Assembly: GCA_963702475.1 (NCBI GenBank)
Contig: CAVPCT010000005.1
Coordinates: 768,001-832,000 of the forward strand
Reading direction: 5' to 3'
Source: an uncultured Thermoleophilia bacterium
Lineage (GTDB): Bacteria; Actinomycetota; Thermoleophilia; UBA2241
Length of the DNA stretch: 64,000 nt
Every line of letters starts with the position of its first letter. Position 1 is the first letter of the stretch. Below are positions 16,746 to 27,769 of the stretch, piece after piece. A program made the translations under genes and the position numbers. Under the pieces are notes generated by a model. The model saw only the letters and a program-made list of their open reading frames with translations. It made no database searches and was not told the origin of the DNA.

Positions 16746-17933
16746 ATGCAGGACCCCTTCGTCATCGAGCGACTGGACCCCGGGCACATCGACGAGCTCG
16801 CCCCCCTGTGGGCGGCGCTGCTCGATCACGTGGCGGCTCTGCCGGCCGCGCTCGTGCCGGTGCGCCCGGCCGACGAGTCCTGGCCCCTGGAGCGGCGCGA
16901 CGTGCTCGCGGCACTGGCCGGCGACGGCTTCGTGCTCGTCGCCCGCGACGCCGGCCGGACCGTCGGCTACGCGCTCGTCGAGGTCGAAGGCCCGGACCCG
17001 GTCTGGTACACCGGCGACACTCACGCGCACCTTGCGGCGCTGGTCGTCGCGCCCGAGCGCCGCGGGACGGGCGTCGGGAGCGCGCTGCTCGACGCCGTCG
17101 ACGAGGAGCTCGCCCGCCGCGGCGTGGAGGACGTGGAGATCGGCGTGGACACCGGCAACGAGGTCGCGGCCCGCCTGTACGAGAGCCGCGGCTACCGTCC
17201 GGACTTCCGCATCTACTACGGGTCGCCCGGCCGCAGGCCGTGGGCCTGCCTGCGGCGCGAGGAGGAGGACCGCCGGGCCGGGCGCGGCCGCTTCGCCCCG
17301 CCCGGCACGGCGGGCACGCGAGAGCCCGAGCCCGCGTCCGGCCCCGCCTCCGGCCAGCCGGACGCTGCGCAGACGCAGGATGAGCCGCCGGCGGCCGGCC
17401 GCCCCGGCGGCGGCGATTCGGCCGAGCTCGTCATCGAGCCCCTCCCCGCCGCCGAGCTCGACCACCTGGAGCCGCTCTGGACGGTGATGCAGCAGGACCA
17501 CGCCGGCCTGTGGGACGTGCTGCCGGCGCGCGATCCCGACGACTCCTGGCCGCGCCGCCGGCAGCGGTACGCGGACTGGCTGGCGTGCGGAGACTCCTTC
17601 GTCGTCGTGGCGCGCCGCGGCGACAGGCTCGTCGGCTACTTCATGGTGGCGGTCGCCGAGGGCGACGAGACCTTCGCCACCGGCGAGCGGCTGGCGGAGC
17701 TCGAGTCGCTCGTCGTGCTGCACGAGGAGCGCGGCAACGCGATCGGCGAGCAGCTCTTCCAGGCCGGCATGCGGCGCCTGGAAGAGCTGGGCGTGGACGA
17801 CGTGATCAGCGGCGTGCTGCACGGCAACGCCTTTGCGCGCCGCTTCCACGAGAGGCACGGCTTCGTGCCGTTCGTCGACTTCCTGTACGCAAAGCGCGCC
17901 GACATCCAGGCTGCCGGAAGGAGGCCGACGTGA
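16746..17933 (+). CDS. Tandem (two-domain) GNAT acetyltransferase
   Basis: Two GNAT motif-A segments (VVAPERRGTGVG; VVLHEERGNAIG) joined by a Pro/Ala linker. Confidence 0.85.
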   Translation: MQDPFVIERLDPGHIDELAPLWAALLDHVAALPAALVPVRPADESWPLERRDVLAALAGDGFVLVARDAGRTVGYALVEVEGPDPVWYTGDTHAHLAALVVAPERRGTGVGSALLDAVDEELARRGVEDVEIGVDTGNEVAARLYESRGYRPDFRIYYGSPGRRPWACLRREEEDRRAGRGRFAPPGTAGTREPEPASGPASGQPDAAQTQDEPPAAGRPGGGDSAELVIEPLPAAELDHLEPLWTVMQQDHAGLWDVLPARDPDDSWPRRRQRYADWLACGDSFVVVARRGDRLVGYFMVAVAEGDETFATGERLAELESLVVLHEERGNAIGEQLFQAGMRRLEELGVDDVISGVLHGNAFARRFHERHGFVPFVDFLYAKRADIQAAGRRPT

Positions 17934-18446
17934 ACGCAGCCGAGGTGACGCGCGGCCGGAAGAGCGACGAGCTGCCGCGCTACGTGAGCGTGATCGGCGC
18001 GAGCCGGGCCGACGCGGCCCTCATGGCGACGGCCGAGGAGCTCGGCGAGCTGCTGGCGAGCCGCCGGCTTCACCGTGGTGTGCGGCGGCCGCGAGGGCGT
18101 CATGGAGGCCGTGGCGCGCGGCGTGAGGCGGCGAGGGGGCGTCTCCCTCGGCATCCTTCCGGAGGAGGACCGCCGCCGCGCCGCCCCGGACCTCACCTAC
18201 ACCATCTGCACCGGCATCGGCCACGCCCGCAACCTGAGCGTCGTAGCCAGCGGCGACGTGGTGATCGCCGTGGGCGGGGCCTGGGGAACGCTCAGCGAGA
18301 TCGGCCTGGCGCGGAGCATCGGGCGCCCCGTGATCCTGCTGGGCACGTGGCGGATCCTGCCGCCGCAGGGAGGCGAACTCGACGGGGTGCGGCGGGCGTC
18401 CACACCCGCCGAAGCCGTCGAGCTCGCCGTCGCGGCGCTCGTCTGA
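17930..18446 (+). CDS. TIGR00725-like LOG/SLOG family protein; frameshift at ~18065
   Basis: VSVIGAS...AEELGELLA in one frame, continuing as GFTVVCGGREGVMEA...TGIGHARN...GGAWGTLSEI after removing one C. Confidence 0.85.
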
Positions 18447-18547
18447 CCGCCGGTCCACGCGAACGTCAACCACTCGCGCGGTCGGCGGGGACGTCTCCCG
18501 GCTTGCGCGGCTGCTACAGTACCCACTACGTCGTTGAATCCGGCCCA

Positions 18548-21433
18548 GTGAGCCGCCCCTTGTCAGGAGAACCTCACATCCTCGGCCCCGTGGCGGCGAA
18601 GCTCTCCAGGCCGGTCACGGCAGGAGCGGTCCTTCGCCCCGAGACCGTCGCCGCCTTCGATGCAGGTCTTCGCCGCCGTCTCACGGTCGTCTGCGCACCC
18701 GCCGGCTACGGCAAGTCCACGGCCGCGGCGGCCGCTACCGCCGAGCTCGGCGTCGACTGCGTGTGGTACAAGCTGGACCTGCTCGACCGCGATCCCGTCC
18801 TGTTCCTGGCATCGCTCGCCGAGGCGCTTCGTGACCGCGCCCCCCAGTTCGGCGAGCCGATCCGTGAACGACTCAGATCGTCGGGGAGTGAGCCGTTCCC
18901 GCTCTCCCACCTGCAGGCCATGTTCGTCCGTGAGTGCGAGACCCACCTCGGCAATGCTGCCGTCCACCTGGCGCTCGACGACTTCCACGAGGCCGCGGAG
19001 TCCAGCGCCACCACGTCGGCGCTCGACTACCTCCTCGCCAATCTCCCGCGAGGCTTTCGCTTCGTGGTGATCGGCAGATACGACCCGTCCCTGCGACTCG
19101 CCAAGCTCAGGCTGGAGGACCAGGTGGGCCTGGTCGACGCCGGCGTCCTGCGCTTCAGTGTCACGCAGGCCGCCGCCGTCCTCGAGGCACGCACGGGGGT
19201 GCGACCCGAGCCCCACCACGTGCGACAGCTGGTCGACATCACAGAAGGATGGCCGGCGAGCATCGTGTTCGCCGGCCTTGTCCTCGACTGGCAGGCACCC
19301 GACCGAGTCGACGCCGCCCTCTCGGACCCGCGCCTCAAACAGGATATCTACTCGTACCTCGCGGAACAGGTGTACGCCAGCGAGGATCGCGCGACCAGGG
19401 CCTTCCTCAAGCGGACCTGTTGCCTGGACAACCTCACCGTGGACCTCGCCGGGCGCGTGGGACGCACGCGGTTGGCCGCCAAGAGACTCGCGCATCTCGC
19501 GGCCAAGAGTGTCTTCACGTTCGCGACCGCGGACGAGGGGGCGTACCGGTACCATCGCCTGTTCCGGGACTTCCTCAGGCAGAAGTTCGTCCAGGACGAG
19601 GGCGAGGGGGCGTTTCGCAGGTTGCACGTCGAGACCGCGGAGGTACTGGAGGACGCCGGGGAGACGGAGCTGGCGATCGAGCTCTTCCTCGATGCCAACG
19701 AGCCGCGAGAGGCGCTGCGCATCGTCGCCGCCGTGGGTGAGGCCATGCTCGCCGACGTGCCGTCGGACCGGCTCGCATCCTGGCTGGAGCGACTGCCCCC
19801 AGACCTCAGGTCCGGTGAGCCGTGGCCGCTGCTCCTGGAGGCACAACTCCGCTGCCGCGAAGCCGACTACGGGCGCGCGCTGAACGGCATCGGCGAGGCC
19901 GAGCGCCTCTTTCGCGCGACCGCCGACGACGCCGGATTGTACGAGTGTCTGTCGATGCGCGAAAGCGCGCTGTTCTGGCGCGGCGACACCGCCGCGGCCA
20001 TGGACGCATGCCGCGAGGCGCTGGAACGCGCCGGCACCGACGCCCAGAGGATCCACTCGCTCCTCAGCCTCGGCTCCGCCGCCGTCGAGGCACGAGACTG
20101 GGCGCTCGCGGACGACTCGTTCGCCCGCGCGGACGACCTCGCCCTGACGACCGATCCGCGCGAACGCCCGCGCGCACAGGCTCTCCGATCACACGCGCTG
20201 TACTACCAAGGGTTCGTTCGGGAGGCACGCGAAGCAATGCCCGACACGCGCGACCTAATAGTGTCACCGTCACTCCATGTTGCCGCGACCAACACCTTGG
20301 GCATGATCCGCACCGCCCTCGGCGACTACCAAGGGGCCCTGGCCTGTCTGGGCGAGGCCCTCGAGGCCGCACGGCGGTTCGGGTTCGCCGCCCCGCGCGA
20401 CATGATTCTCGACAACATCGGGCTCGCCACGGGCTCCTGCGGCGACCTCCTCGCCGGCCTCGAGCACGTCCGCGCCGCGGCTCGTGGTGACGCCTACGAG
20501 CAGCAGCCCGGCCTGCGAGCCTGGGCGCAGTGCCACGAGGCCACCCTGCTTCGGAGGGCCGGTCATGTGGAGGAGGCGCGACTGGCGGCGGAGCAGGTCG
20601 TGATCCAGGCGCGCGCGCTGGACGACACCTACGCGCGCCTCAACTTCGAGGCCAACCTGCTGTTCGCACGTGGTCTGCTCGGCGACGACACGAGAGACGG
20701 CATGGACCAAGTGGCAAGGCGTGCCGATGGGCTGCAGCTTGCCTTCGTGGCGCTCAAGGCGCGCCTCTTCGCGGCCGTCGTCGCCGACACGAGGGGGCAC
20801 GCGAAAGACGCGGAGGCGCGCCTGGCGCACTGTCTGCCGCGGCAGCTTGAACTGGGCCACCTGCATGTGGTGACCCAGGAGCTGTGCCCGCGGCCGCACG
20901 CCGCTCTGAGGGCGCTGTCGGTGCTGGAACGTGCCGGGCTTCATCGGCGACTCATGGACGCGCTCGCGCTCCACCCCGGGTTCGCGGAACTCGCCGACAC
21001 CCTCTGCGCCGGACGCGCCGACCTCGCCGCGCTCGCCGTGGACGCGGCGCGGCGCTCCGCCCCCGATGCCGTGCTCACGCGCGTGCTGCGCGCTGCGGGG
21101 CGTTGCGGTCGGGACAACGTGGCCGCGGCGGTGGAGCGGGCGCGCACGGCTCGTCCCACGGCCACCGGGCGCGCCGCCGCCATGCTGGAGCGGCTCACGC
21201 CCCGCGAACGCGAGGTCCTGTCGCTCATGGCGGACGGCCTGCGCAACCGCGACATCGTCGCGCGTCTGTTCCTCTCCGAGTCGACGGTGAAGACTCACGT
21301 CTACCACATCTTCACCAAGCTCGAGGTGAAGACGCGGGTCGAGGCGGTCCTTCTCCATCACGATGCGCTCCCGTCACCCGGAGCCGCGGCGCATCTCAAC
21401 CCCCGCATACCGGGAGATACGACCGCGGTATGA
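18548..21433 (+). CDS. MalT-like ATP-dependent transcriptional regulator (STAND NTPase, TPR-like region, LuxR HTH)
   Basis: KLSRP, Walker A APAGYGKST, Walker B LALDDFH, TEGWPA, YRYHRLFRDFL, C-terminal LTPREREVL...GLRNRDI...LFLSESTVKTHVYHIFTKL; start approximate. Confidence 0.92.
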   Translation: MSRPLSGEPHILGPVAAKLSRPVTAGAVLRPETVAAFDAGLRRRLTVVCAPAGYGKSTAAAAATAELGVDCVWYKLDLLDRDPVLFLASLAEALRDRAPQFGEPIRERLRSSGSEPFPLSHLQAMFVRECETHLGNAAVHLALDDFHEAAESSATTSALDYLLANLPRGFRFVVIGRYDPSLRLAKLRLEDQVGLVDAGVLRFSVTQAAAVLEARTGVRPEPHHVRQLVDITEGWPASIVFAGLVLDWQAPDRVDAALSDPRLKQDIYSYLAEQVYASEDRATRAFLKRTCCLDNLTVDLAGRVGRTRLAAKRLAHLAAKSVFTFATADEGAYRYHRLFRDFLRQKFVQDEGEGAFRRLHVETAEVLEDAGETELAIELFLDANEPREALRIVAAVGEAMLADVPSDRLASWLERLPPDLRSGEPWPLLLEAQLRCREADYGRALNGIGEAERLFRATADDAGLYECLSMRESALFWRGDTAAAMDACREALERAGTDAQRIHSLLSLGSAAVEARDWALADDSFARADDLALTTDPRERPRAQALRSHALYYQGFVREAREAMPDTRDLIVSPSLHVAATNTLGMIRTALGDYQGALACLGEALEAARRFGFAAPRDMILDNIGLATGSCGDLLAGLEHVRAAARGDAYEQQPGLRAWAQCHEATLLRRAGHVEEARLAAEQVVIQARALDDTYARLNFEANLLFARGLLGDDTRDGMDQVARRADGLQLAFVALKARLFAAVVADTRGHAKDAEARLAHCLPRQLELGHLHVVTQELCPRPHAALRALSVLERAGLHRRLMDALALHPGFAELADTLCAGRADLAALAVDAARRSAPDAVLTRVLRAAGRCGRDNVAAAVERARTARPTATGRAAAMLERLTPREREVLSLMADGLRNRDIVARLFLSESTVKTHVYHIFTKLEVKTRVEAVLLHHDALPSPGAAAHLNPRIPGDTTAV

Positions 21434-21500: not shown

Positions 21501-22520
21501 ATGGAAGCATCCACATCCGTCGTCTACATCGAGTCGAACCGCATGAGCCAGCGCAAGAAGACGGTGATCGACCTCCTGCGTGCCGGCGAGGACTTCGTGT
21601 CGGGCGAGGCCATGAGCGCGCAGCTCGGCATCTCGCGGAACGCCGTGCACAAGCACATCAAGTCGCTGCGCCGGCGGGGCTACCGCATCCTGGGCGTCTC
21701 CCGTCGCGGTTATCGTCTGGAGGAGGAGCCGAGCCGTCTCTCCATGGCGCACGTCACCGACCGCACGGCCGGCAGCGCGTTCGCCCGCTCCTACCGCTAC
21801 TACGACGAGATCGAGTCGACCAACGTGGAGGCCAAGTCGCTCGCCAACAGCGGCGCCCCCGAAGGCACCGTGGTGATCGCCGAGTCGCAGACTGCCGGAC
21901 GCGGCCGGCTCGGGCGCCGCTGGACGTCCCCGGCGGGCAAGGGACTGCTCTTCTCCGCACTGCTGCGTCCGGCCTTCCCGATGGGCGACGCCCACATGCT
22001 CACCCTGGTGGCGGCGTGCGCCGCCGCCGAGGCCATCGAGTCGCTCGCCGACGTGGCGGTGGCCATCAAGTGGCCCAACGACCTCTTCATCGGCGACCGC
22101 AAGGTGGGCGGCATCCTGCTCGAGGTGGCCGGCGAGCAGGATGAGGTCGACTGGATCGTCGTGGGCATGGGCGTCAACGTGAACACCGAGTACTCTGAGT
22201 TGCCCGTCGCGCTGCGCAGAACAGCGACGTCCCTGAAGATGACCACGGGCGCCCCGGTCGACAGGAGTGAGCTCCTCGCGCGGCTGCTGCTCGCACTCGA
22301 CGGCCACTACCGGCGTGCGCTGTCCGACGGCTTCGAGCGCGCCTTGAGTGAGTTCAGGAGCCGGGACTACCTCGTGCGCCGCACGGTGAGCGTCCAGACT
22401 CGCGAGGGCGCGGTGGTGGGCGAAGCCGTCGGTATCGACGAGCGCGGCGCCCTGCTCGTGCAGGTGCCTCACCGCTCGGTGCGTTCGTTCCACTCCGGCG
22501 ACGTCACCCTCGCCACCTGA
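21501..22520 (+). CDS. birA: Bifunctional biotin ligase/repressor BirA
   Basis: N-terminal HTH (SGEAMSAQLGISRNAVHKHI), STN, QTAGRGRLGRRW, KWPND, KVGGIL. Confidence 0.96.
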   Translation: MEASTSVVYIESNRMSQRKKTVIDLLRAGEDFVSGEAMSAQLGISRNAVHKHIKSLRRRGYRILGVSRRGYRLEEEPSRLSMAHVTDRTAGSAFARSYRYYDEIESTNVEAKSLANSGAPEGTVVIAESQTAGRGRLGRRWTSPAGKGLLFSALLRPAFPMGDAHMLTLVAACAAAEAIESLADVAVAIKWPNDLFIGDRKVGGILLEVAGEQDEVDWIVVGMGVNVNTEYSELPVALRRTATSLKMTTGAPVDRSELLARLLLALDGHYRRALSDGFERALSEFRSRDYLVRRTVSVQTREGAVVGEAVGIDERGALLVQVPHRSVRSFHSGDVTLAT

Positions 22521-22548
22521 GCCGCACGCGCCCCGGGAGGTCGTCACC

Positions 22549-22610
22549 TTGACAACCTCCCGGGGCGCGCCCTACATTGTCACCTCTGTTCTCCGGAGCA
22601 AGGTTGACGA
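22549..22610 (+). promoter_or_regulatory. Sigma70-type promoter and BirA-like operator upstream of bioY
   Basis: TTGACA(22549)-N18-TACATT(22573), overlapped by the imperfect palindrome TTGTCACC-N17-GGTTGACGA. Confidence 0.65.
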
Positions 22611-22611
22611 T

Positions 22612-23163
22612 TTGCAGCAGCTTCAGGCGCGCGAGGTCGCCTACGCCGCCCTCTTCGCGGCCCTCATCGCGGCAGGCGCGTTCGTGGCCGTCCCGCTCGG
22701 CCCCGTGCCCTTCACCCTGCAGGTACTCGTGGTGCTGCTCGCGGGCCTCGTGCTGGGCCCACGCGGCGGTACGCTCGCTGTCGCTGCCTACCTCGTCCTG
22801 GGGCTCGTCGCTCCGGTCTATGCCGGCGGCACGTCGGGCGTCGGCGTCCTCGTCGGACCGACGGGCGGGTATCTGTGGGGCTTCGTTCTCGGGGCCGCTG
22901 CCGCGGGTCTCGTGGCGCGGCGCACCGGACCGAGGCTCCTGGGTCTGACGGCCGCGGCCCTCGCGGGACTGGTGCCGATCTACGCGCTGGGTACGACGTG
23001 GCTGGCGTTCCAGCTCCACCTGGACGCCGGGGCGGCCATAGCCGCCGGCGCGCTGCCGTTTCTCACCGCCGACCTGGTGAAGGCAGGAGCCGCCGCCCTG
23101 GCGGCGAGAAGCCTGCTCAGCCTGCCGCTGGGTCTTCCCGAGCCTCAGACGAGAGGCCGCTGA
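22612..23163 (+). CDS. bioY: Biotin transporter BioY
   Basis: PVPFTLQ, GPTGGYLWGF motifs; highly hydrophobic; next to birA; start uncertain. Confidence 0.93.
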   Translation: MQQLQAREVAYAALFAALIAAGAFVAVPLGPVPFTLQVLVVLLAGLVLGPRGGTLAVAAYLVLGLVAPVYAGGTSGVGVLVGPTGGYLWGFVLGAAAAGLVARRTGPRLLGLTAAALAGLVPIYALGTTWLAFQLHLDAGAAIAAGALPFLTADLVKAGAAALAARSLLSLPLGLPEPQTRGR

Positions 23164-24550
23164 CGTCGGCCAGCGCCCGGCCGCGGAGGCGGAGGTTGAT
23201 GCGCCCGCGCTCGTACTCGACCATGAAGTCGGTCGAGCTGCCGTCCCTGTACGCGAGGTCCTTGTCGCGCAGGACCCGGGCCAGCGCCTCCACGTAGTCC
23301 TTCTCGAGGGTCTTGCCCGAAGCCCCGCGCAGCTCCTTGAGCGCCTCGAACGAGCTGCGCGCCGAGTGGTACGGCCGGTCCGACGTCATCGCGTGGTACG
23401 AGTCGGCGACCGCGAGGATCTTGCTCAGCTCGGGGATGTCGTCGCCCTTCATGCCGGACGGGTAGCCGCTGCCGTCCAGCCGCTCGTGATGGTACCGGAC
23501 GATGTCGGCCACTCCCTGGTACGCGACCAGGTGCGAGAGCACCTCGGCGCCCTTCTCCGGATGCTCTCTGACGCAGGACCAGTCCTGCTCGTCGAGGACG
23601 GTCGTCTTGCGGAGCACGGCGTCGGGTACTCCGACCTTCCCCAGGTCGTGGAGGAGGCCCGCGAGGTGCAGCGCCTCGGCCTGCTCCTCCGGCAGGCTCA
23701 GCACCATGGCCATGTCGCGGCAGTACATGGCGACCGCGGCAGAGTGCTGGGCAGTGTACTCGTCCTTGCTGTCGAGCAACACCACCATGGCCGCCGCCAG
23801 GCCGATGTTCATCTCGAGATACTGGTCGCTGAGCTCCTTCTGCCGGGTCAGATGCTGCTTCTCGCGGACCAGCAGCTTGAACATGTACTGGCTCGAGAAC
23901 AACGGGATGAACAGGAGCGCCACAGCGACGATGCCAGCCTCGGCGTACAAGGCGGCAATGGCCAAGCCGAGCAGAAGAAGCACGCCCAGGGAGCGCATGA
24001 AGGGCGGCATCTCCTCACGCCAGAAGGAACCAAGGTGTCTCTGGTACTTGACCCGCATGCCCATGCTGACCAGCGCGAGATTGGCCGCTTCAAAAGTAAC
24101 CGCAGCTGCAGCGCCGGCCGCGAGCAGCGAAACCGAGAGGGAGTCCGGAGGCACGTCGAGCGCTCGTGACACCGCCTCGAAGACCATGGTGGCCAGAAAC
24201 ACCGAGAGCACCGTGTTGGCCACGTTGAAGACGACGACGACGCGGGACTCCTCGCGCCAGGCGCCCCAGAGCCCGAGCACGAGCGCCACGGCGAGCGCCG
24301 GCACGCGGCCGGTGTACATGATCGCGAGAAGGAGCGGCAGGTTGCCGGCGGCGAGCGTGACGCGTTCCGACACCTCGACCGACATCTCGTCGGCGATCAC
24401 CGCGAGGACGGCGAACACCACTGCGTCGCGCAGCACGGTCGTCGTCAGGACAACGGAGCCCGGGTACAGCAGGGCGTAGCCCACGGCAAGCGAGCCCGCT
24501 GCGGCCAGCCCGACCGCGAACGCGCGGAAGTTGCGCTCAGCTATCGACAC
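23117..24550 (-). CDS. Membrane-bound HD-GYP cyclic-dinucleotide phosphodiesterase with a ~7-8 TM sensor domain
   Basis: SD GAGGTGG before GTG; hydrophobic N-terminal ~240 aa; KDEYTAQHS, LLHDLGK, HHERLDGSGYP, ADSYHAMTSDRPY. Confidence 0.93.
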   Translation of the reverse strand: MSIAERNFRAFAVGLAAAGSLAVGYALLYPGSVVLTTTVLRDAVVFAVLAVIADEMSVEVSERVTLAAGNLPLLLAIMYTGRVPALAVALVLGLWGAWREESRVVVVFNVANTVLSVFLATMVFEAVSRALDVPPDSLSVSLLAAGAAAAVTFEAANLALVSMGMRVKYQRHLGSFWREEMPPFMRSLGVLLLLGLAIAALYAEAGIVAVALLFIPLFSSQYMFKLLVREKQHLTRQKELSDQYLEMNIGLAAAMVVLLDSKDEYTAQHSAAVAMYCRDMAMVLSLPEEQAEALHLAGLLHDLGKVGVPDAVLRKTTVLDEQDWSCVREHPEKGAEVLSHLVAYQGVADIVRYHHERLDGSGYPSGMKGDDIPELSKILAVADSYHAMTSDRPYHSARSSFEALKELRGASGKTLEKDYVEALARVLRDKDLAYRDGSSTDFMVEYERGRINLRLRGRALADVSGLSSEAREDPAAG

Positions 24551-24611
24551 TCCACCTCACCCGGGTCCTCGGTGTGGCGTCTATCGGCAGCACCTGGGGC
24601 GGGCTTGAGGG

Positions 24612-24692
24612 TCAGTGGATCTTGCTGCTGCCGCCACCGGCCACGAGCGCAAGGAGGAGGGAGGCGAGGGTGCGTTCTATCTTCTTGCTCAT
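24612..24692 (-). CDS. 26-aa signal-peptide-like micro-protein MSKKIERTLASLLLALVAGGGSSKIH
   Basis: ATG at 24692, TGA at 24612; basic N-region, hydrophobic core, polar tail; co-oriented and ~61 bp upstream of the HD-GYP gene. Confidence 0.7.
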   Translation of the reverse strand: MSKKIERTLASLLLALVAGGGSSKIH

Positions 24693-24708
24693 GATGACCC
24701 CGCCCCAG

Positions 24709-24792
24709 TCAGTGAAGCTTGGCGTAGTCGGCCGTGATGTGGAGCTTGGCGTAGTCGGCCGTGATGTGGAGCTTGGCGTACTCAACGAACAT
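24709..24792 (-). CDS. 27-aa repeat micro-protein MFVEYAKLHITADYAKLHITADYAKLH
   Basis: Strong SD AGGAGG 5 nt before ATG at 24792; in-frame 27-bp repeat; TGA at 24709; codons mostly GC-ending. Confidence 0.75.
   Translation of the reverse strand: MFVEYAKLHITADYAKLHITADYAKLH
24712..24780. repeat. 27-bp tandem repeat, ~2.5 copies, encoding YAKLHITAD
   Basis: gagcttggcgtagtcggccgtgatgtg repeated, with one synonymous difference. Confidence 0.95.
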
Positions 24793-25044
24793 GGAATCCT
24801 CCTAAAGTCCCGGCGACAACTGCCGATGAATTGTGGTTGACGACTGCCTTGGCACTCTCGCAGCGACGCTCGCGGAAGCCCACCCCTCAGGCTTTGGACA
24901 TCCCGCGCAAAGCGGCGCGTGAACGATTGCCAGAATGGACAACACATTTTGTGGCGCCCGCGGCAATCGTCATCCCAAGCTTGCCAGCACCCTCGCGCAC
25001 GCACGCGCGAAGGCGAGTCGTGCCGAAGCCTGCGCGAAGGAGCG

Positions 25045-26344
25045 GTGACCGGCCCAGCGAAGCTCTCCGGGTCACCGCGGTCGTCCGGCGCCGGGAGGCA
25101 TCATCGAGGCCAACAGCATCAGGCGGGTCGACAGGAGGACCAGCGCCCGCCGCGCGTCGCTCGCGCGCAACGGCAACTTCGCGCTCCTGTGGGCGGGCCA
25201 GTTCGTGTCGCAGCTGGGCGACAGGCTGGCGATGGTCGCACTGCCGTGGCTGGTGTACCGCGCCACCGGGTCGGCCCTGAGCACGGGCGTCGCCTTCGCC
25301 CTCTACACGTTGCCCTACGTGCTGTTCGGAGCCTTCGCCGGCGTGCTCATCGACCGGTTCGACAAGCGCCTGGTCATGATCGCCTCCGACCTTGTGCGGG
25401 TCGCGCTCGTGATGCTCGTGCCGCTGGCGGCGCAACGGTCTCTCTGGGCCGTGTTTGTGTTGAGCTTCCTCATCGCGAGCGCCGCCGTGTTCTTCGACCC
25501 CTGCAAGCTCGCGCTCCTGCCGGATCTGGTCCCGCGTGAGAAGCTGCTGCGCGCCAACTCACTGCTGGCCACCGGCGAGAACCTCACCGAGATCCTGGGG
25601 TACACCGCCGCGGGGTTCGCGCTCGCGTACATCTCGACCACCAACGTCTTCCGCATCGACGCGGCCACCTTCGCGGTGTCGGCCGCGTCGCTGGCGCTGA
25701 TCCGCTACAGGGCCCCGGTGCGGGCGGCGACGGAGAAGGCCGCCCGCTCGTTCTGGCGCGACCTGCGCGAGGGCTTCGCCTTTCTCCGGCACCACCGCGG
25801 CCTGCTGACGAACACCATCATGGTCGTAGGCTGCGTGGCGGGGCTCGGGGCGTCCTACCCGCTCGCCTTCCTGCTCGCGGTGGACGTGTTCGACGCGGGC
25901 ACGGCGGCATTCGGCGTGTTCGAAGGGATGGTCGGCCTCGGCTACCTCGTGGGCTCGCTCGCGCTGGCGGCCCTGGCCCAGCGTGTGCCGCAGGGCCGCG
26001 CCATGGTCGCGGGGCTGATGCTCATGGGCGCGAGCCTGTCTCTGGTGGCCGCGGCCGGGGGCGTGTGGATCGCCTGCATCCCGTTCGCGGTCCTCGGCGT
26101 GGCCAACGCGGCGGCGCTCATCGCGATCGACACCTACCTGCAGAACGTCGTGCCCGAACACCTTCGCGGCAGGGTGTTCGGCACGCGGTTCACGCTCACG
26201 CAGGGCGTCTACGCGCTGGCGGTGCTCGCCGGCGGCGCGCTCGCCACCATCGTGGACATCCGCGTGCTCTTCATCGTCTGCGGCCTGCTGATCGCCGTGC
26301 CGGCGCTGGCGGGCCTGTTCGTGCGCGAGATCCGCGACGCGTGA
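25045..26344 (+). CDS. MFS transporter (macrolide-efflux/DHA3-like); 5' start ambiguous, possible frameshift at ~25095
   Basis: RNGNFALLWAGQFVSQLGD, GVLIDRFDKR; ~12 TM. The conserved N-terminus extends upstream of the called start at 25205; SD plus GTG at 25045 is one base out of frame. Confidence 0.85.
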
Positions 26345-26440
26345 GCGTGCTTCTGACCTCAGGCGGTCGGTGATAGCCTAGGTCCGGCCCGCGGCGGTCG
26401 CGGGCCTCGGCGTCCCCGCCCAGAGCGGGACGCGAACGCC

Positions 26441-27769
26441 ATGAGCACCTCGTCACCTGCACAGACTCCCACGCTCCCCGGCATGCCACGCTCCGCTTGG
26501 CTGCAACTCGGCGTGGTCTGCGTGGCCGAGTTCGTGGTGTGGACGGGCTTCGGCGCCATCATGCCGTACCTGCCGATCTTCCTGAAGGACCAGGCGCACA
26601 GCTCCATGTTCATGATCGGCGTCATCGCGGCGTCCTTCTACCTCGGCACGCTGCTGTTCTCGTCGCCCTTCGGCTGGCTCAGCGACACCGTCGGCCGCAA
26701 GCCCGTCATGCTTGGCGGCATCGTCCTGTACTCACTCGCCATGTTCCTGTTCACGCGCACGGCCGACCCCTGGTGGTTCGTGCTGTTCCGCTTCATGGAG
26801 GGCGTCGGCACGGCCGCGGTGGCGCCGGCGGCCATGGCGCTGGTGGCCGACATCACCACCGAACAGACGCGCAGCAGGGCCTACGGCATCCTCACCTCGG
26901 CGCAGTTCGGCGGACTCATCGTGGGGCCGGCGCTGGCGCCGCCCATCTACCACATGGCGGGCGGCGGCGTGTCAGGCTTCTACGCCATCTTCTACTTCGG
27001 CGCCGCCTTGGCGGCGGCCACGACCGTCCTCGTCGCCGCGCTCATCCGCGAGCCGGCCGTGACGCACCGCAGAAAGGCGGCGCGCGCCGGCAAGAAGGCC
27101 GAACGACCACCCTACCGGGCCATCCTCTCGCCGCCCATCATCGCCTTCCTCGTCATCGGGTTCACCGCCCACCTCTCCATGGGCGGCTGGGAGGTGGTGT
27201 GGAGCATCTGGCTCGAGCATCTCGGCGCGTCCATGACGTACATCGGCCTCACGTGGGTCGCCTTCAGCGTGCCCATGCTGCTCTCGTTCGCCGGCGGCAT
27301 GCTGGCCGACAAGTACAGCCGCTTCACCCTCATGTTCGTGGGCTACACGATCTCGGCCGTGTCCTGGATCCTGTACGGGACGACCACCAACCTCACGTTC
27401 TTCATCGTCATCAACGTCGTCGAGGGCCTCGCCATAGCGTTCTCGTACCCGCCCAAGCAGGCCTTTCTCATCCAGGTGAGCCCCCCGAAGTGGCTCGGCA
27501 CCGTGACCGGCATAGAGGCCACGTCGATGCAGCTCGCCGGCATGATCGGTACGTTCCTCGCACCGGTGCTGTACGGCTGGATGTCGGGGTACGTGCTGGC
27601 CCTGGGCGGAGTGGTCAGTCTCGTCGGCCTGGCCGCCACCGCGCCGGTGCTGCACCGCGAGTGGCGGCGCCTCTCGGCGCAGGGGCCCGTGCCGAGCACG
27701 AGCGAGCTGGAGAGCCGCGACGGCGCGCTGCCGGTGACGACGGCGGAACCGCCCTCGAGCCGGGAGTGA
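26441..27769 (+). CDS. MFS transporter (DHA1-like)
   Basis: GWLSDTVGRKP motif A; ~12 TM. Confidence 0.92.
   Translation: MSTSSPAQTPTLPGMPRSAWLQLGVVCVAEFVVWTGFGAIMPYLPIFLKDQAHSSMFMIGVIAASFYLGTLLFSSPFGWLSDTVGRKPVMLGGIVLYSLAMFLFTRTADPWWFVLFRFMEGVGTAAVAPAAMALVADITTEQTRSRAYGILTSAQFGGLIVGPALAPPIYHMAGGGVSGFYAIFYFGAALAAATTVLVAALIREPAVTHRRKAARAGKKAERPPYRAILSPPIIAFLVIGFTAHLSMGGWEVVWSIWLEHLGASMTYIGLTWVAFSVPMLLSFAGGMLADKYSRFTLMFVGYTISAVSWILYGTTTNLTFFIVINVVEGLAIAFSYPPKQAFLIQVSPPKWLGTVTGIEATSMQLAGMIGTFLAPVLYGWMSGYVLALGGVVSLVGLAATAPVLHREWRRLSAQGPVPSTSELESRDGALPVTTAEPPSSRE

What the first reader, a model, noticed from the sequence alone, without database searches (positions are those of the whole stretch)
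23117..24800. Candidate peptide-signal to c-di-GMP system: two K-[L/I]-H micro-peptides upstream of a membrane HD-GYP phosphodiesterase
Seen: on the minus strand the order is SD AGGAGG, ORF1 MFVEYAKLHITADYAKLHITADYAKLH* (24792-24709), 16 bp, ORF2 MSKKIERTLASLLLALVAGGGSSKIH* (24692-24612), ~61 bp, then a ~7-8 TM HD-GYP gene with intact HD and HHE..GYP motifs. Neither peptide is called as such in the ORF track. They have different architectures but share the C-terminus K-[L/I]-H-stop, also similar at DNA level (aagcttcactgac / aagatccactgac). Known: Gram-positive peptide pheromones (Phr, PapR, SHP) are short signal-peptide-like precursors whose C-terminal few residues are the signal, normally read by RRNPP proteins or histidine kinases; HD-GYP domains hydrolyse c-di-GMP or related dinucleotides. 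Inference: ORF2 is an exported pro-pheromone (mature ~SSKIH or GGGSSKIH) or a membrane modulator sensed by the adjacent TM domain, and ORF1 is a multi-copy version, agonist or decoy. I do not know of a characterised cognate peptide/HD-GYP receptor pair.
Basis: partly seen in the sequence, partly recalled or inferred. Interest (0 to 1): 0.9.

Follow-up and report, generated by a model that had tools for sequence, protein, structure and literature searches.

The report
Micro-peptide genes paired with MASE9 sensor
Two tiny conserved genes in front of a membrane-bound c-di-GMP-degrading enzyme encode peptides that share a three-residue ending; the longer one belongs to an apparently undescribed class of about 25-residue peptides found next to this type of membrane sensor in many Actinomycetota, which points to a peptide-sensing module that has not been tested at the bench.

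Summary
On the minus strand, ORF1 (24792-24709), ORF2 (24692-24612) and a MASE9-like HD-GYP gene (24550-23117) form one unit.

Conservation within the family (uncultured Thermoleophilia):
- Of 58 usable loci, 56 keep ORF2 and 51 keep ORF1.
- ORF2 evolves as a protein: pN/pS is 0.36, against 1.09 and 1.65 in the shifted frames.
- ORF1 is a mini-ORF of 5-9 codons ending [K/R]-[M/I/L/V]-H-stop. It has been amplified to 2-4 in-frame units, or duplicated whole, in several distinct repeat architectures.

New result: ORF2 is the local form of a phylum-wide class of micro-ORFs.
- They are 23-32 aa: a basic N-terminus, about 17 uncharged residues, a small-x-small site, then a 2-7-residue basic/aromatic tail.
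- They lie next to MASE9 sensors with HD-GYP or histidine-kinase outputs.
- Of 86 profile hits, 50 lie directly upstream of a MASE9 match and 11 are divergent; about 0.1 would be expected by chance.
- One divergent copy has its own Shine-Dalgarno site and terminator, so that copy is not a cis leader.

Best reading (0.55): the peptide is a cognate partner or ligand of the MASE9 membrane domain. Whether it is cleaved and diffusible or stays membrane-tethered is unresolved. ORF1's role is open.

Tests for an attenuator RNA switch were negative. No curated family or paper was found. Nothing is shown experimentally.

The parts
24821..24843 (-). Conserved 5' leader element. It holds a 9-nt block at 24843-24835 that resembles the left half-site of the family's BirA-type operator, and an 8-nt block at 24828-24821. 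It lies just downstream of a -10-like hexamer at 24859-24854; calling that hexamer a promoter element is my inference.
   Evidence: The blocks are nearly invariant in the family leaders aligned by anchor.
24798..24803 (-). Shine-Dalgarno sequence of ORF1.
   Evidence: Read directly from the sequence. A GGAGG- or GGGGG-type SD lies 5-8 nt before the ORF1 start in the family leaders.
24709..24792 (-). ORF1: 27 codons, made of three in-frame 9-codon units, each ending K-L-H, with the last unit followed by TGA.
   Evidence: An ORF1 with an SD and a [K/R]-[M/I/L/V]-[H/R]-stop ending (only G007 ends in R) was found in 51 of 58 family loci. The basic residue is encoded by AAG, AAA, AGA, CGC, CGG or CGT, His by CAC or CAT, and all three stop codons occur.
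24712..24780 (.). 27-nt tandem repeat that underlies ORF1.
   Evidence: Tandem Repeats Finder: period 27, 2.6 copies, 97% matches.
24612..24692 (-). ORF2: a 26-codon micro-ORF. It has a basic N-terminus, a hydrophobic core, a G-G-G stretch, and a tail S-S-K-I-H.
   Evidence: - Found in 61 of 89 family genomes, one copy each in most (59 of the 61).
- Found in 56 of 58 usable loci, upstream of the HD-GYP gene.
- pN/pS is 0.36, against 1.09 and 1.65 in the shifted frames.
- It aligns without internal gaps (one extra residue, S2, at the N-terminus; end gaps before and after) to micro-ORFs of other Actinomycetota.
24582..24609 (-). Two conserved blocks in the ORF2-to-HD-GYP spacer (24609-24604 and 24589-24582). 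They are reverse complements of blocks in the 5' leader (24807-24802, with one mismatch in this genome, and 24828-24821).
   Evidence: Function is unknown. The long-range pair forms in 10 of 33 MFE folds, but it cannot be tested by covariation because both sides hardly vary.
23846..24550 (-). N-terminal membrane domain (residues 1-235) of the HD-GYP protein; MASE9-like.
   Evidence: - Pfam MASE9: 22.8 bits against a 24.3-bit cut-off.
- Profile-profile alignment to MASE9-HD-GYP proteins: 100%, E 1.8e-71, covering residues 3-431. Six of the 16 proteins in that profile were scanned, and all six pass the Pfam cut-off.
- Hydropathy scan.
23315..23788 (-). HD-GYP catalytic domain (residues 255-412).
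   Evidence: Pfam HD_5 at 7.1e-39. The HD, HHE and GYP residues are invariant in 40 orthologues.
23117..24550 (-). The whole HD-GYP gene (477 codons, GTG start).
   Evidence: The membrane-domain orthologue is present in 70 of 89 family genomes.

Best explanation
The locus is a three-cistron unit: mini-ORF1, micro-ORF2, and a MASE9-type membrane HD-GYP phosphodiesterase.

ORF2 is a genuine small gene product. It works in trans with the MASE9 membrane domain as its cognate peptide partner.
- Its basic N-terminus and hydrophobic core of about 14-17 residues take it into or across the membrane.
- A small-x-small site precedes a very short tail, here S-S-K-I-H.
- That tail is the lineage-specific part that the sensor reads. 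Either signal-peptidase-type cleavage releases it as a diffusible 4-6-residue peptide (my split: 0.3), or it stays tethered at the outer membrane face on the uncleaved helix (0.25).
- Occupancy of the sensor then sets HD-GYP activity, and with it c-di-GMP.

ORF1 is a tail-only derivative of the same motif, in 1-4 copies. It either adds or antagonises tail peptide, or it acts as a translated upstream ORF that tunes expression of ORF2 and the enzyme.

Shown: conservation, protein-level selection, and the gene-neighbourhood coupling to MASE9.
Inferred: export, cleavage, binding, and the effect on the enzyme.
For: 1. ORF2 is under protein-level selection.
- pN/pS is 0.36, against 1.09 and 1.65 in the shifted frames.
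- Third-codon-position entropy is 1.21, against 0.72 and 0.42 at positions 1 and 2 (34 unique sequences).
- Many synonymous codon changes are visible, and both TGA and TAG stops occur.

2. Distribution within the family.
- ORF2 is in 61 of 89 family genomes and 10 of 11 genera.
- 56 of 58 usable loci have it upstream of the HD-GYP orthologue.
- Outside the family but within the class, the profile found only 6 marginal hits among 321 genomes. All 6 lie inside open frames of 230-680 aa.

3. Phylum-wide coupling to MASE9.
- The Pfam MASE9 model matches 94 of 301 Actinomycetota genomes.
- A same-strand micro-ORF lies within 700 nt upstream in 16 of 29 inspected loci by one script. Pooling searches gives 21 of 29.
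- The same regular expression matches only 39 times in the 8.6 Mb of both strands of the own genome.

4. Profile search.
- 86 hits at E <= 1e-3 in published genomes.
- 50 lie directly upstream of a MASE9 match on the same strand, 11 are divergent at 419-554 nt, and 1 is in another orientation.
- 29 of the 50 are loci that were not used to build the profile.
- My own arithmetic gives a chance expectation of roughly 0.1.

5. The partner genes share the sensor domain, not the output.
- Six scanned partners are MASE9-HD-GYP and one is MASE9-HisKA-HATPase.

6. A divergent micro-ORF (L141) has its own strong SD and a hairpin followed by a T-run, which reads as a terminator. It is a monocistronic gene and cannot be a cis leader.

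7. The window's protein is collinear with those MASE9-HD-GYP proteins over residues 3-431 (hhalign 100%, E 1.8e-71).

8. Architecture of 55 unique micro-ORFs.
- Median length is 25 aa.
- The longest uncharged run has a median of 17 residues (range 13-19).
- N-terminal net charge is +2.
- All 55 have a small-x-small site 2-7 residues from the C-terminus.
- 53 of 55 tails contain K or R.

9. Tails are conserved within lineages, differ between them, and differ between paralogues in one genome.

10. The tail is repeatedly amplified.
- ORF1 has 2, 3 or 4 motif copies in 11, 16 and 2 of 58 loci. Unit lengths are 5, 6, 8 and 9 residues, and in four genomes the whole mini-ORF is duplicated.
- Three micro-ORFs of another family carry the pentapeptide N-A-S-W-L twice after the small-x-small site.
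- Whole micro-ORF genes occur in 2-3 tandem copies.

11. The authors who defined MASE9 proposed that its ligand binds within the membrane, and no ligand is known (passages read).
Against: - There is no direct evidence of translation, export, cleavage or binding. The RNA-type runs gave only contigs.
- ORF1 has no hydrophobic segment, so it cannot be exported by the same route. It can shrink to 5 codons (G044). That pattern is more typical of a regulatory upstream ORF.
- No processing or export gene is specifically linked. The divergent MFS genes are conserved, but so is the whole syntenic block.
- 72 of 117 MASE9 matches have no profile hit upstream, and 24 of 86 profile hits are not within 1.5 kb of a MASE9 match. 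Some of the 24 may sit beside sub-threshold MASE9-like domains, as the window's own gene does.
- The profile and the regular expressions are partly circular. 21 of the 50 upstream hits come from training loci. The aromatic/His requirement in the tail was built into the regular expression that selected the non-family members.
- An uncharged run of 13-19 residues is short for a stable transmembrane helix. No signal-peptide predictor was available, so cleavage is my reading of the -3/-1 rule.
- Agreement of the hydrophobic residue between the ORF1 and ORF2 motifs is only partial. By eye over, they match in about half the lineages.
Confidence: 0.55

Rival explanations
1. Both small ORFs are cis-acting leader peptides. 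Ribosomes pause or terminate slowly on the shared [K/R]-hydrophobic-His-stop ending, in response to some metabolite or drug. That pause controls translation or transcription of the downstream HD-GYP gene, in the way the two tandem leader peptides of ermA or the tnaC leader work.
For: - The two upstream ORFs share their last three codons and the stop position.
- In ORF1, only the start, the SD, the length (5-9 codons per unit) and the ending are constrained.
- ORF1 starts at a nearly fixed distance from a conserved 5' element (offsets 73-91 for the mini-ORF starts, mostly 75-88).
- Conserved nucleotide blocks flank the ORF pair and are mutually complementary.
- In G007, both mini-ORFs end K-L-R and ORF2 is absent.
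Against: - RNAalifold finds no consensus structure in the ORF2-to-HD-GYP spacer across 32 sequences.
- I simulated a ribosome parked at the ORF1 or ORF2 stop codon. It does not open the downstream ribosome-binding sites: mean unpaired probability goes from 0.306 to 0.299 for HD-GYP and from 0.472 to 0.448 for ORF2 (n = 36).
- The spacer has no T-run terminator.
- ORF2 is conserved along its whole length and has homologues with quite different tails across the phylum. A ribosome-directed arrest motif should not diversify in this way.
- 11 homologues are divergently oriented to the MASE9 gene, and the one examined (L141) is monocistronic with its own terminator.
- The motif occurs nowhere else in the genome as a small ORF.
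- Internal motif copies in ORF1 are conserved even though they are not at a stop codon.
Confidence: 0.15
2. ORF2 is a constitutive small membrane subunit of the MASE9 protein. It may be needed for folding, stability or dimer packing, or it may be a split-off first transmembrane helix. It carries no signal. ORF1 is then only a translated upstream ORF or a decaying duplicate of the ORF2 3' end.
For: - The operon position and one-to-one occurrence with the sensor fit.
- Small residues recur every 3-4 positions in the hydrophobic core, and one Ser is conserved in at least 90% of sequences.
- Basic plus aromatic residues at the end of a helix are typical membrane-interface anchors; this is general knowledge, not tested here.
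- The MASE9 authors expect ligand binding inside the membrane.
Against: - Tails differ between paralogues in one genome and are duplicated in tandem after the small-x-small site in three micro-ORFs.
- Whole genes occur in 2-3 tandem copies.
- ORF1 keeps the tail motif under selection and amplifies it in several distinct repeat architectures.
- These features fit a dosage-sensitive, specificity-bearing signal better than a structural subunit.
- No fused micro-ORF/MASE9 frame is seen. Of the 86 hits, none lies in an open frame above 400 aa.
- The micro-ORFs do not match the Pfam MASE9 model at E <= 1.
- G007 and G044 keep an intact HD-GYP gene without an intact ORF2.
Confidence: 0.2
3. The small ORFs are minimal precursors of a ribosomally made, post-translationally modified peptide, in the manner of the 5-7-codon precursor genes of biarylitides or microcin C. 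The HD-GYP protein is then a bystander or a sensor of the product.
For: The ORFs are very short with a strictly conserved C-terminal residue, and multi-core repeats occur. Two MFS transporter genes are divergently adjacent.
Against: - No modifying enzyme lies in the conserved block. The neighbours are a LuxR-type regulator, BirA, BioY, two MFS transporters and a CofH/MqnC-type radical-SAM gene, which I read as a menaquinone-pathway enzyme.
- The neighbours are conserved as a whole syntenic block, which is no evidence of linkage.
- The partner that is conserved phylum-wide is the MASE9 sensor, not an enzyme.
Confidence: 0.05

Closest known systems
Phr-type and related Gram-positive pro-peptides read by RRNPP receptors (Phr/Rap, PapR/PlcR, arbitrium). 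My knowledge of these is recalled, except for a sub-threshold NCBIfam Phr_nterm hit.
   Same: A short signal-peptide-like precursor whose last few residues would be the active part. The gene sits next to its receptor gene. The peptides are lineage-specific, and multi-copy precursors occur.
   Different: The adjacent receptor here is a polytopic MASE9 membrane domain, not a cytoplasmic TPR protein. There is no pro-region, since the whole precursor is 23-32 aa. No import system is implied. The phylum is Actinomycetota. The Phr_nterm hit (E 0.13, 12.8 bits against a cut-off of 25) is far below threshold.
AgrD/AgrC and ComC/ComD peptide-sensor pairs (recalled).
   Same: A small peptide gene is co-located (in the same operon for AgrD/AgrC; ComC sits beside ComD) with a polytopic membrane sensor that reads it from outside. 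Specificity groups exist.
   Different: No AgrB-like or C39-peptidase ABC exporter gene is adjacent. There is no conserved Cys for a thiolactone. Outputs here include an HD-GYP phosphodiesterase as well as kinases.
Small membrane-protein modulators of sensor kinases (MgrB, SafA, PmrR and the like; recalled).
   Same: A protein of about 25-50 aa with a single helix that acts on the membrane part of a sensor.
   Different: Those genes are usually unlinked feedback targets. Here the gene is immediately upstream of, or divergent from, the sensor gene, and it has a hypervariable tail that is sometimes repeated.
MASE9 sensor domain (Pfam PF20972; Galperin and Chou, bioRxiv 10.1101/2021.11.05.467447; I read passages only).
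   Same: The window's protein is a MASE9-type HD-GYP by profile-profile alignment.
   Different: The single sequence scores 22.8 bits, under the 24.3-bit cut-off. The passages I read name no ligand and mention no upstream small ORF.
Two-leader translational attenuators (ermA type) and stop-codon arrest peptides (tnaC type); recalled.
   Same: Two tandem upstream ORFs share a C-terminal motif that ends at the stop codon.
   Different: No alternative RNA structure was found. Homologues occur as separate, divergent genes.

Membership tests
HD-GYP phosphodiesterase | An HD-superfamily domain with the HD dyad, the HHE motif and the GYP motif. | tested here: met
   Pfam HD_5 at 7.1e-39 and HD at 5.6e-21. 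H301-D302, H354-H355-E356 and G362-Y363-P364 are invariant in 40 orthologues. Catalytic activity was not tested.
MASE9 membrane sensor domain (PF20972) | A match to the family model at or above the curated cut-off. | tested here: inconclusive
   The single sequence scores 22.8 bits against a 24.3-bit cut-off. The family profile aligns at 100% probability (E 1.8e-71) over residues 3-431 to a profile of 16 MASE9-HD-GYP proteins. Six of the 16 were scanned, and all six pass the cut-off.
Sec-type signal peptide cleaved by signal peptidase I | A positively charged n-region, a hydrophobic h-region, and small residues at positions -3 and -1 before the cleavage site. | tested here: inconclusive
   55 of 55 unique micro-ORFs have a small-x-small site 2-7 residues from the C-terminus. 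The median N-terminal charge is +2 and the median uncharged run is 17 residues. No signal-peptide predictor or cleavage assay was available. Only sub-threshold hits to signal-peptide models were found.
RRNPP pheromone system | A cytoplasmic TPR-type receptor encoded next to the pro-peptide gene. | tested here: not met
   The adjacent conserved gene is a membrane MASE9 protein. A LuxR-type regulator with weak TPR hits lies three genes away, but only as part of a block that is syntenic across the family.
Agr-type or double-glycine peptide systems | A dedicated processing or export gene (AgrB, or a C39-peptidase ABC transporter) in the locus. | tested here: not met
   None is found in the conserved +/-6 kb block. 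The block holds BirA, BioY, two MFS transporters, a LuxR-type regulator and a CofH/MqnC-type radical-SAM gene.
Translational attenuator or arrest-peptide leader | An alternative RNA structure, or another cis link, between ribosome position on the leader ORF and expression of the downstream gene. | tested here: not met
   No consensus structure and no change in ribosome-binding-site accessibility in the footprint simulation. A tnaC-like, Rho-dependent mechanism was not testable.
Translational attenuator or arrest-peptide leader | The leader ORF always lies in cis, upstream and on the same strand as the regulated gene. | tested here: not met
   11 of the 62 MASE9-proximal micro-ORF hits are divergent. 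L141 has its own SD and terminator. Within the window's own family the arrangement is always in cis.
Minimal RiPP precursor | A modifying enzyme gene clustered with the precursor gene. | tested here: not met
   No such gene lies in the conserved neighbourhood. The rest of the genome was not searched for one.

The most novel reading that the evidence does not exclude
Actinomycetota possess a previously unrecognised peptide-signalling system.
- Genes of only 23-32 codons consist of little more than a signal peptide plus a 2-7-residue basic/aromatic tail.
- The released or displayed tail is read directly by the MASE9 membrane domain. That domain then drives c-di-GMP hydrolysis (HD-GYP), histidine-kinase phosphorelays or PP2C phosphatases.
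- The ORF1 arrays, the doubled N-A-S-W-L tails, and the subtilase-borne arrays of about 8-14 copies of a T-K-[F/Y]-[R/K]-W unit next to the second MASE9 gene would all be multi-copy precursors of such ligands.

If true, this would give MASE9 its first ligand class and would be the first direct link from a peptide signal to an HD-GYP enzyme.
Probability: 0.3. Interest if true: 0.9.

Novelty: new variant of a known kind. Interest (0 to 1): 0.8.

Why it matters
MASE9 is a widespread membrane sensor domain with no known ligand. Peptide signalling is hardly documented in Actinomycetota: a 2016 review found no quorum-sensing report for Thermoleophilia (passages read).

A conserved gene pair consisting of a micro-peptide and a MASE9 sensor gives a concrete, testable candidate ligand for a whole family of c-di-GMP phosphodiesterases and histidine kinases. 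Relatives of that family occur in cultivable actinomycetes.

It also shows that genes of 5-30 codons, which annotation pipelines usually do not call, can be recovered from synteny and codon-level selection alone. The shortest ORF1 forms (5-9 codons) would be among the smallest conserved bacterial coding units.

Tried and rejected
- Rfam scan of 22000-27000 at E <= 1. Three chance-level hits, none in the leader.
- Long-range RNA helix between the conserved complementary blocks. It forms in 10 of 33 MFE folds. Both sides are almost invariant, and the few variants (L070, L084, L067) are not compensated, so it is neither supported nor excluded.
- The second block pair shows some compensatory changes but also many one-mismatch combinations (my reading).
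- Inverton or MITE reading of the inverted blocks. Rejected, because all family loci have the same orientation and no invertase gene is nearby.
- RNAalifold on the ORF2-to-HD-GYP spacer. Zero pairs predicted.
- Ribosome-footprint accessibility simulation. No systematic effect.
- Nucleotide-level (protein- or RNA-binding) reading of the ORF1 repeat. Rejected, because variation is codon-wise: K/R, the hydrophobic residue and His are each encoded by several codons.
- Frame-broken ORF1 copies (L017, L018, L019, L022, L026, L030) come from genomes whose HD-GYP gene is also split or interrupted. I take these as assembly indels. That is an inference.
- Read-through or frameshift fusion of ORF1 to ORF2, or of ORF2 to HD-GYP. 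Rejected, because the relative frames and gap lengths vary.
- Own-genome scan for further small ORFs with the motif. None found.
- Expression. Of 21 runs, one is an RNA library by record (share 0.05) and one is only guessed to be RNA. Only contigs could be laid, so they say nothing about transcription. One contig of the guessed-RNA run covers 24501-24726. Its two differences inside ORF2 are both third-position synonymous by my own translation.
- The S-T-T-W-S x2 ORF upstream of MASE9-GAF-PAS kinases. Present in 9 of 10 species of one genus, with third-position entropy 0.30 against 0.13 and 0.11. The repeat is also a DNA palindrome, so it is ambiguous and I do not count it as an ORF1 analogue.
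- Pfam and NCBIfam scans of 10 micro-ORFs. Nothing reaches a cut-off.
- Literature. Searches used the terms MASE9; HD-GYP with leader peptide; c-di-GMP with small membrane protein; c-di-GMP with peptide pheromone and HD-GYP; HdgA; HD-GYP with small open reading frame; and Thermoleophilia with c-di-GMP. I saw listings, plus passages of four papers. None describes a small ORF next to a MASE9 or HD-GYP gene. Supplements were not seen, and figures S5 of the MASE9 paper could bear on this.

Full report
**What is there**

On the minus strand, a strong Shine-Dalgarno sequence (24803-24798) precedes ORF1 (24792-24709). ORF1 has 27 codons, made of three in-frame 9-codon units that each end K-L-H. The underlying repeat is 27 nt, 2.6 copies.

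Sixteen nucleotides later ORF2 begins (24692-24612, 26 codons). It has a basic N-terminus, a hydrophobic core, a glycine run, and a tail ending K-I-H. Sixty-one nucleotides further on, a GTG opens a 477-codon gene (24550-23117).

Pfam assigns that gene an HD-GYP-type HD_5 domain (7.1e-39, residues 255-412). It also gives a MASE9 membrane-domain match just under the cut-off (22.8 against 24.3 bits, residues 45-221). A hydropathy scan shows hydrophobic stretches between residues 9 and 224. Roughly 7-9 spans is my reading of an overlapping segment output.

Rfam finds nothing in the leader. The genome has 70% G+C. It contains only 17 [K/R]-[M/I/L]-H-stop sites in six frames, and no second small ORF of this kind.

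**Organism**

Related loci in named records are all metagenome-assembled genomes: 19 of 20 are labelled Thermoleophilia and one Actinomycetes.

**Conservation within the family**

- A search with ORF2 finds it in 61 of 89 genomes of the family and in 10 of 11 genera, nearly always as a single copy.
- A profile of 34 unique ORF2 sequences (A1) finds it in 60 of 79 family genomes. Among 321 other genomes of the class it gives only 6 marginal hits, all inside long open frames.
- The membrane domain of the HD-GYP protein has an orthologue in 70 of 89 family genomes.
- Nineteen family genomes lack that orthologue. Eighteen of them also lack ORF2. The exception is a 4-kb contig fragment.
- Fifty-eight loci have the start of the HD-GYP gene and at least 300 nt upstream. 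A strict pattern finds an intact ORF2 in 54 of them. Two more (L062, L084) are visible in the same output. ORF1 is found in 51, and both ORFs in 48.
- G007 lacks ORF2 altogether, and in G044 it has decayed. Both keep the enzyme gene and ORF1.
- The surrounding gene order is LuxR-type regulator, BirA, BioY, the operon on the opposite strand, then two MFS genes. The 51 loci examined show the same order, except that L082 and L093 give no BioY hit and the MFS2 hit in L091 is on the opposite strand; short loci show only part of the block. This shared neighbourhood therefore says little about function.

**Are the ORFs coding?**

ORF2 shows many synonymous substitutions and uses both TGA and TAG stops. 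Over 34 unique sequences, pN/pS is 0.36 in the real frame and 1.09 and 1.65 in the two shifted frames. Column entropy is 0.72, 0.42 and 1.21 at codon positions 1, 2 and 3.

In ORF1 the constraint is narrower. It covers the Shine-Dalgarno sequence, the start codon, a short variable stretch often with Arg at position 2 or 3, and the ending [K/R]-[M/I/L/V]-H followed by any of the three stop codons. The basic residue is encoded by six different codons and His by two. The constraint is therefore on the peptide, not on the nucleotides.

Single units are 8-9 codons long, and only 5 codons in G044.

The motif count per locus is 1 in 22 loci, 2 in 11, 3 in 16 and 4 in 2. In the other 7 loci no ORF1 was found by the pattern. 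Repeat units are 5, 6, 8 or 9 residues long. In four genomes (L065, L070, L095, L123) the whole mini-ORF with its ribosome-binding site is duplicated. So the motif-bearing unit has been amplified in several distinct repeat architectures, which I read as independent events (no tree was built), and the internal copies stay conserved.

ORF1 copies with broken frames are confined to genomes in which the HD-GYP gene is also split or interrupted. I read these as assembly indels. In G001 the middle unit is out of frame, but two compensating shifts restore the last unit.

**The wider class**

It matches 94 of them.

Of the 29 best loci from published genomes, 16 have a micro-ORF within 700 nt upstream on the same strand by one script. 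Pooling searches gives 21. Gaps to the MASE9 gene are 14-101 nt, and one pair overlaps by 19 nt.

These ORFs align with ORF2 with no internal gaps apart from ORF2's extra Ser at position 2 and a 3-residue insert in L134 (A4). Across 55 unique peptides:
- the median length is 25 aa (range 23-32);
- the N-terminal net charge is +2;
- the longest uncharged run has a median of 17 residues (range 13-19);
- all 55 have a small-x-small site 2-7 residues before the end;
- 53 of 55 tails contain K or R.

All tails contain an aromatic residue or His. That was a selection criterion for the non-family members, so it is not independent evidence. The commonest tail type ends [K/R]-W. The window's family has K-hydrophobic-H instead.

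The same pattern matches only 39 times in both strands of the own 4.3-Mb genome.

A profile search with A4 gave 86 hits at E <= 1e-3 in published genomes other than the own one. Cross-referenced by script with 117 MASE9 matches:
- 50 lie directly upstream on the same strand (median 209 nt to the start of the domain match);
- 11 are divergent, at a narrow 419-554 nt;
- 1 is in another orientation;
- 24 are not within 1.5 kb.

Twenty-one of the 50 come from loci used to build the profile, and 29 are new. With about one MASE9 match per matching genome and 3-kb windows, my estimate of the chance expectation is roughly 0.1 hits.

The partner genes scanned are MASE9-HD-GYP in six cases and MASE9-histidine kinase in one. 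The window's HD-GYP family aligns collinearly, membrane domain included, with 16 of these MASE9-HD-GYP proteins (hhalign 100%, E 1.8e-71, residues 3-431).

One divergent micro-ORF (L141) has its own strong ribosome-binding site and a hairpin plus T-run directly after its stop codon. It is a gene in its own right.

Micro-ORF genes occur in two or three identical tandem copies in four genomes. Paralogues in one genome carry different tails. In three genomes of another family, a pentapeptide (N-A-S-W-L) is present twice in tandem right after the small-x-small site.

No Pfam or NCBIfam family covers these peptides. The only sub-threshold hits are to signal-peptide-type models.

**Mechanism**

The coupling is to the sensor domain, not to the output. 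It survives changes of orientation. The variable part is the short tail, which is repeatedly amplified. This is the signature of a trans-acting cognate peptide, not of a ribosome-directed leader.

I therefore take ORF2 to be a partner or ligand of the MASE9 domain (0.55). I split that between a cleaved, diffusible tail peptide (0.3) and an uncleaved, membrane-tethered micro-protein (0.25).
- For cleavage: the universal small-x-small site, the short hydrophobic run, and the tandem tails.
- For tethering: the MASE9 authors' expectation of ligand binding within the membrane, and the regular spacing of small residues in the core.

ORF1 is most simply a duplicate of the 3' end of ORF2 that kept only the tail. 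In the main genus, its unit (G-G-K-M-H or A-G-K-M-H) resembles the ORF2 tail beyond the last three residues. It has no export signal. I cannot decide whether it supplies or competes with tail peptide inside the cell, or is a regulatory upstream ORF.

**The leader-peptide rival**

I took this rival seriously, for three reasons: the shared stop-proximal motif, the very short ORF1, and conserved nucleotide blocks that flank the pair and are mutually complementary.

The tests did not support it:
- there is no consensus structure in the spacer;
- ribosome-binding-site accessibility does not change when a ribosome is placed at either stop codon;
- the long-range helix is only sometimes in the MFE fold (10 of 33).

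A Rho-dependent mechanism could not be tested. For ORF2, the phylum-wide data argue against this rival. For ORF1 alone I would still give it about one chance in three.

**Comparison with known systems and novelty**

The closest analogues are Phr-like pro-peptides, Agr/Com peptide-sensor pairs, and small membrane-protein modulators of kinases. The defining partners of the first two (an adjacent cytoplasmic TPR receptor for Phr-type systems; AgrB or a C39 exporter for Agr/Com) are absent here, and the third is a functional class with no defining partner gene, so this is not a member of either of the first two families.

Seven full-text searches and the passages read from four papers turned up no description of a small ORF beside a MASE9 or HD-GYP gene. 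Supplements were not seen.

I rate it a new variant of a known kind (a peptide plus a membrane sensor), with high interest. All functional steps remain inferred.

**Limits**

- All genomes of the family are metagenome bins.
- There are no expression data.
- Structure and complex prediction, and the store of earlier findings, were unavailable.
- The micro-ORFs are too short for the large protein searches.

Noticed in passing
window 22573-22612 (between birA and bioY), compared with 24843-24811: The bioY promoter region carries a palindrome directly after a -10-like hexamer: two 9-nt half-sites about 16 nt apart. It is conserved in nearly all of the 49 family loci that gave a BioY hit and looks like a BirA operator. 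The 9-nt block at the 5' end of the HD-GYP leader differs from its left half-site by one base. In some lineages (L068, L070, L086, L097) a matching right half-site lies 16-18 nt away, but this is not so in the window's genome. Biotin-dependent control of the operon is possible but unproven.
   Followed up: partly
window 24828-24821 versus 24589-24582, and 24807-24802 versus 24609-24604: Two pairs of conserved blocks, mutually reverse-complementary and correctly nested, flank ORF1 and ORF2 in most family leaders. Both members of the first pair are almost invariant, so covariation cannot test pairing. RNA helix, protein-binding sites, or something else: unexplained.
   Followed up: partly
own genome G000:C5 about 256.3-259.2 kb (L005 56-1411 and 1384-2949); also L190-L213: The genome's second MASE9 gene (MASE9-SpoIIE/PP2C, Pfam 28.1 bits) overlaps the end of a subtilase (Peptidase_S8) gene. 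The subtilase's C-terminus is an array of about 8-14 tandem pentapeptides, W-T-K-[Y/F]-[K/R/A]. Read one residue later, the unit ends [K/R]-W, like the commonest micro-ORF tail. The array is visible in 17 of the 24 family loci inspected. In the other 7 the script reported another frame of the same repeat, and the unit differs between species. A link to MASE9 sensing is my speculation.
   Followed up: partly
L149, L152, L156, L159-L163, L165 (one genus with about 73% G+C): MASE9-GAF-PAS histidine-kinase genes are preceded by an ORF of about 40 codons whose last 17 codons are conserved and contain S-T-T-W-S twice, ending at a TAG just before the kinase gene (9 of 10 species). The repeat is also a DNA palindrome, so it could equally be an operator.
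   Followed up: partly
L139 (three copies), L137 and L146 (two copies each), G464 contig C4 (two copies): Identical micro-ORF genes, each with its own ribosome-binding site, are repeated in tandem at a 107-114-nt period upstream of MASE9-HD-GYP genes in low-G+C Actinomycetota.
   Followed up: no
L095 (G007) and L122 (G044): Two genomes keep the HD-GYP gene without an intact ORF2. In G007, both mini-ORFs end K-L-R instead of K-L-H. In G044, ORF1 is only 5 codons long and the ORF2 remnant has lost its start codon and its ending.
   Followed up: no
window 17510-21433 (+): A large LuxR-family regulator (GerE domain, with weak TPR hits below the cut-off) lies three genes from the operon and is syntenic across the family. 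TPR-HTH proteins read peptides in other phyla, but nothing links this one to the small ORFs.
   Followed up: no
family loci from G009, G011, G013, G017, G018, G020, G022: Several bins show split or stop-interrupted HD-GYP genes together with frame-broken small ORFs. This is probably caused by indel errors in the assemblies, and small-ORF calls in such bins need care.
   Followed up: partly
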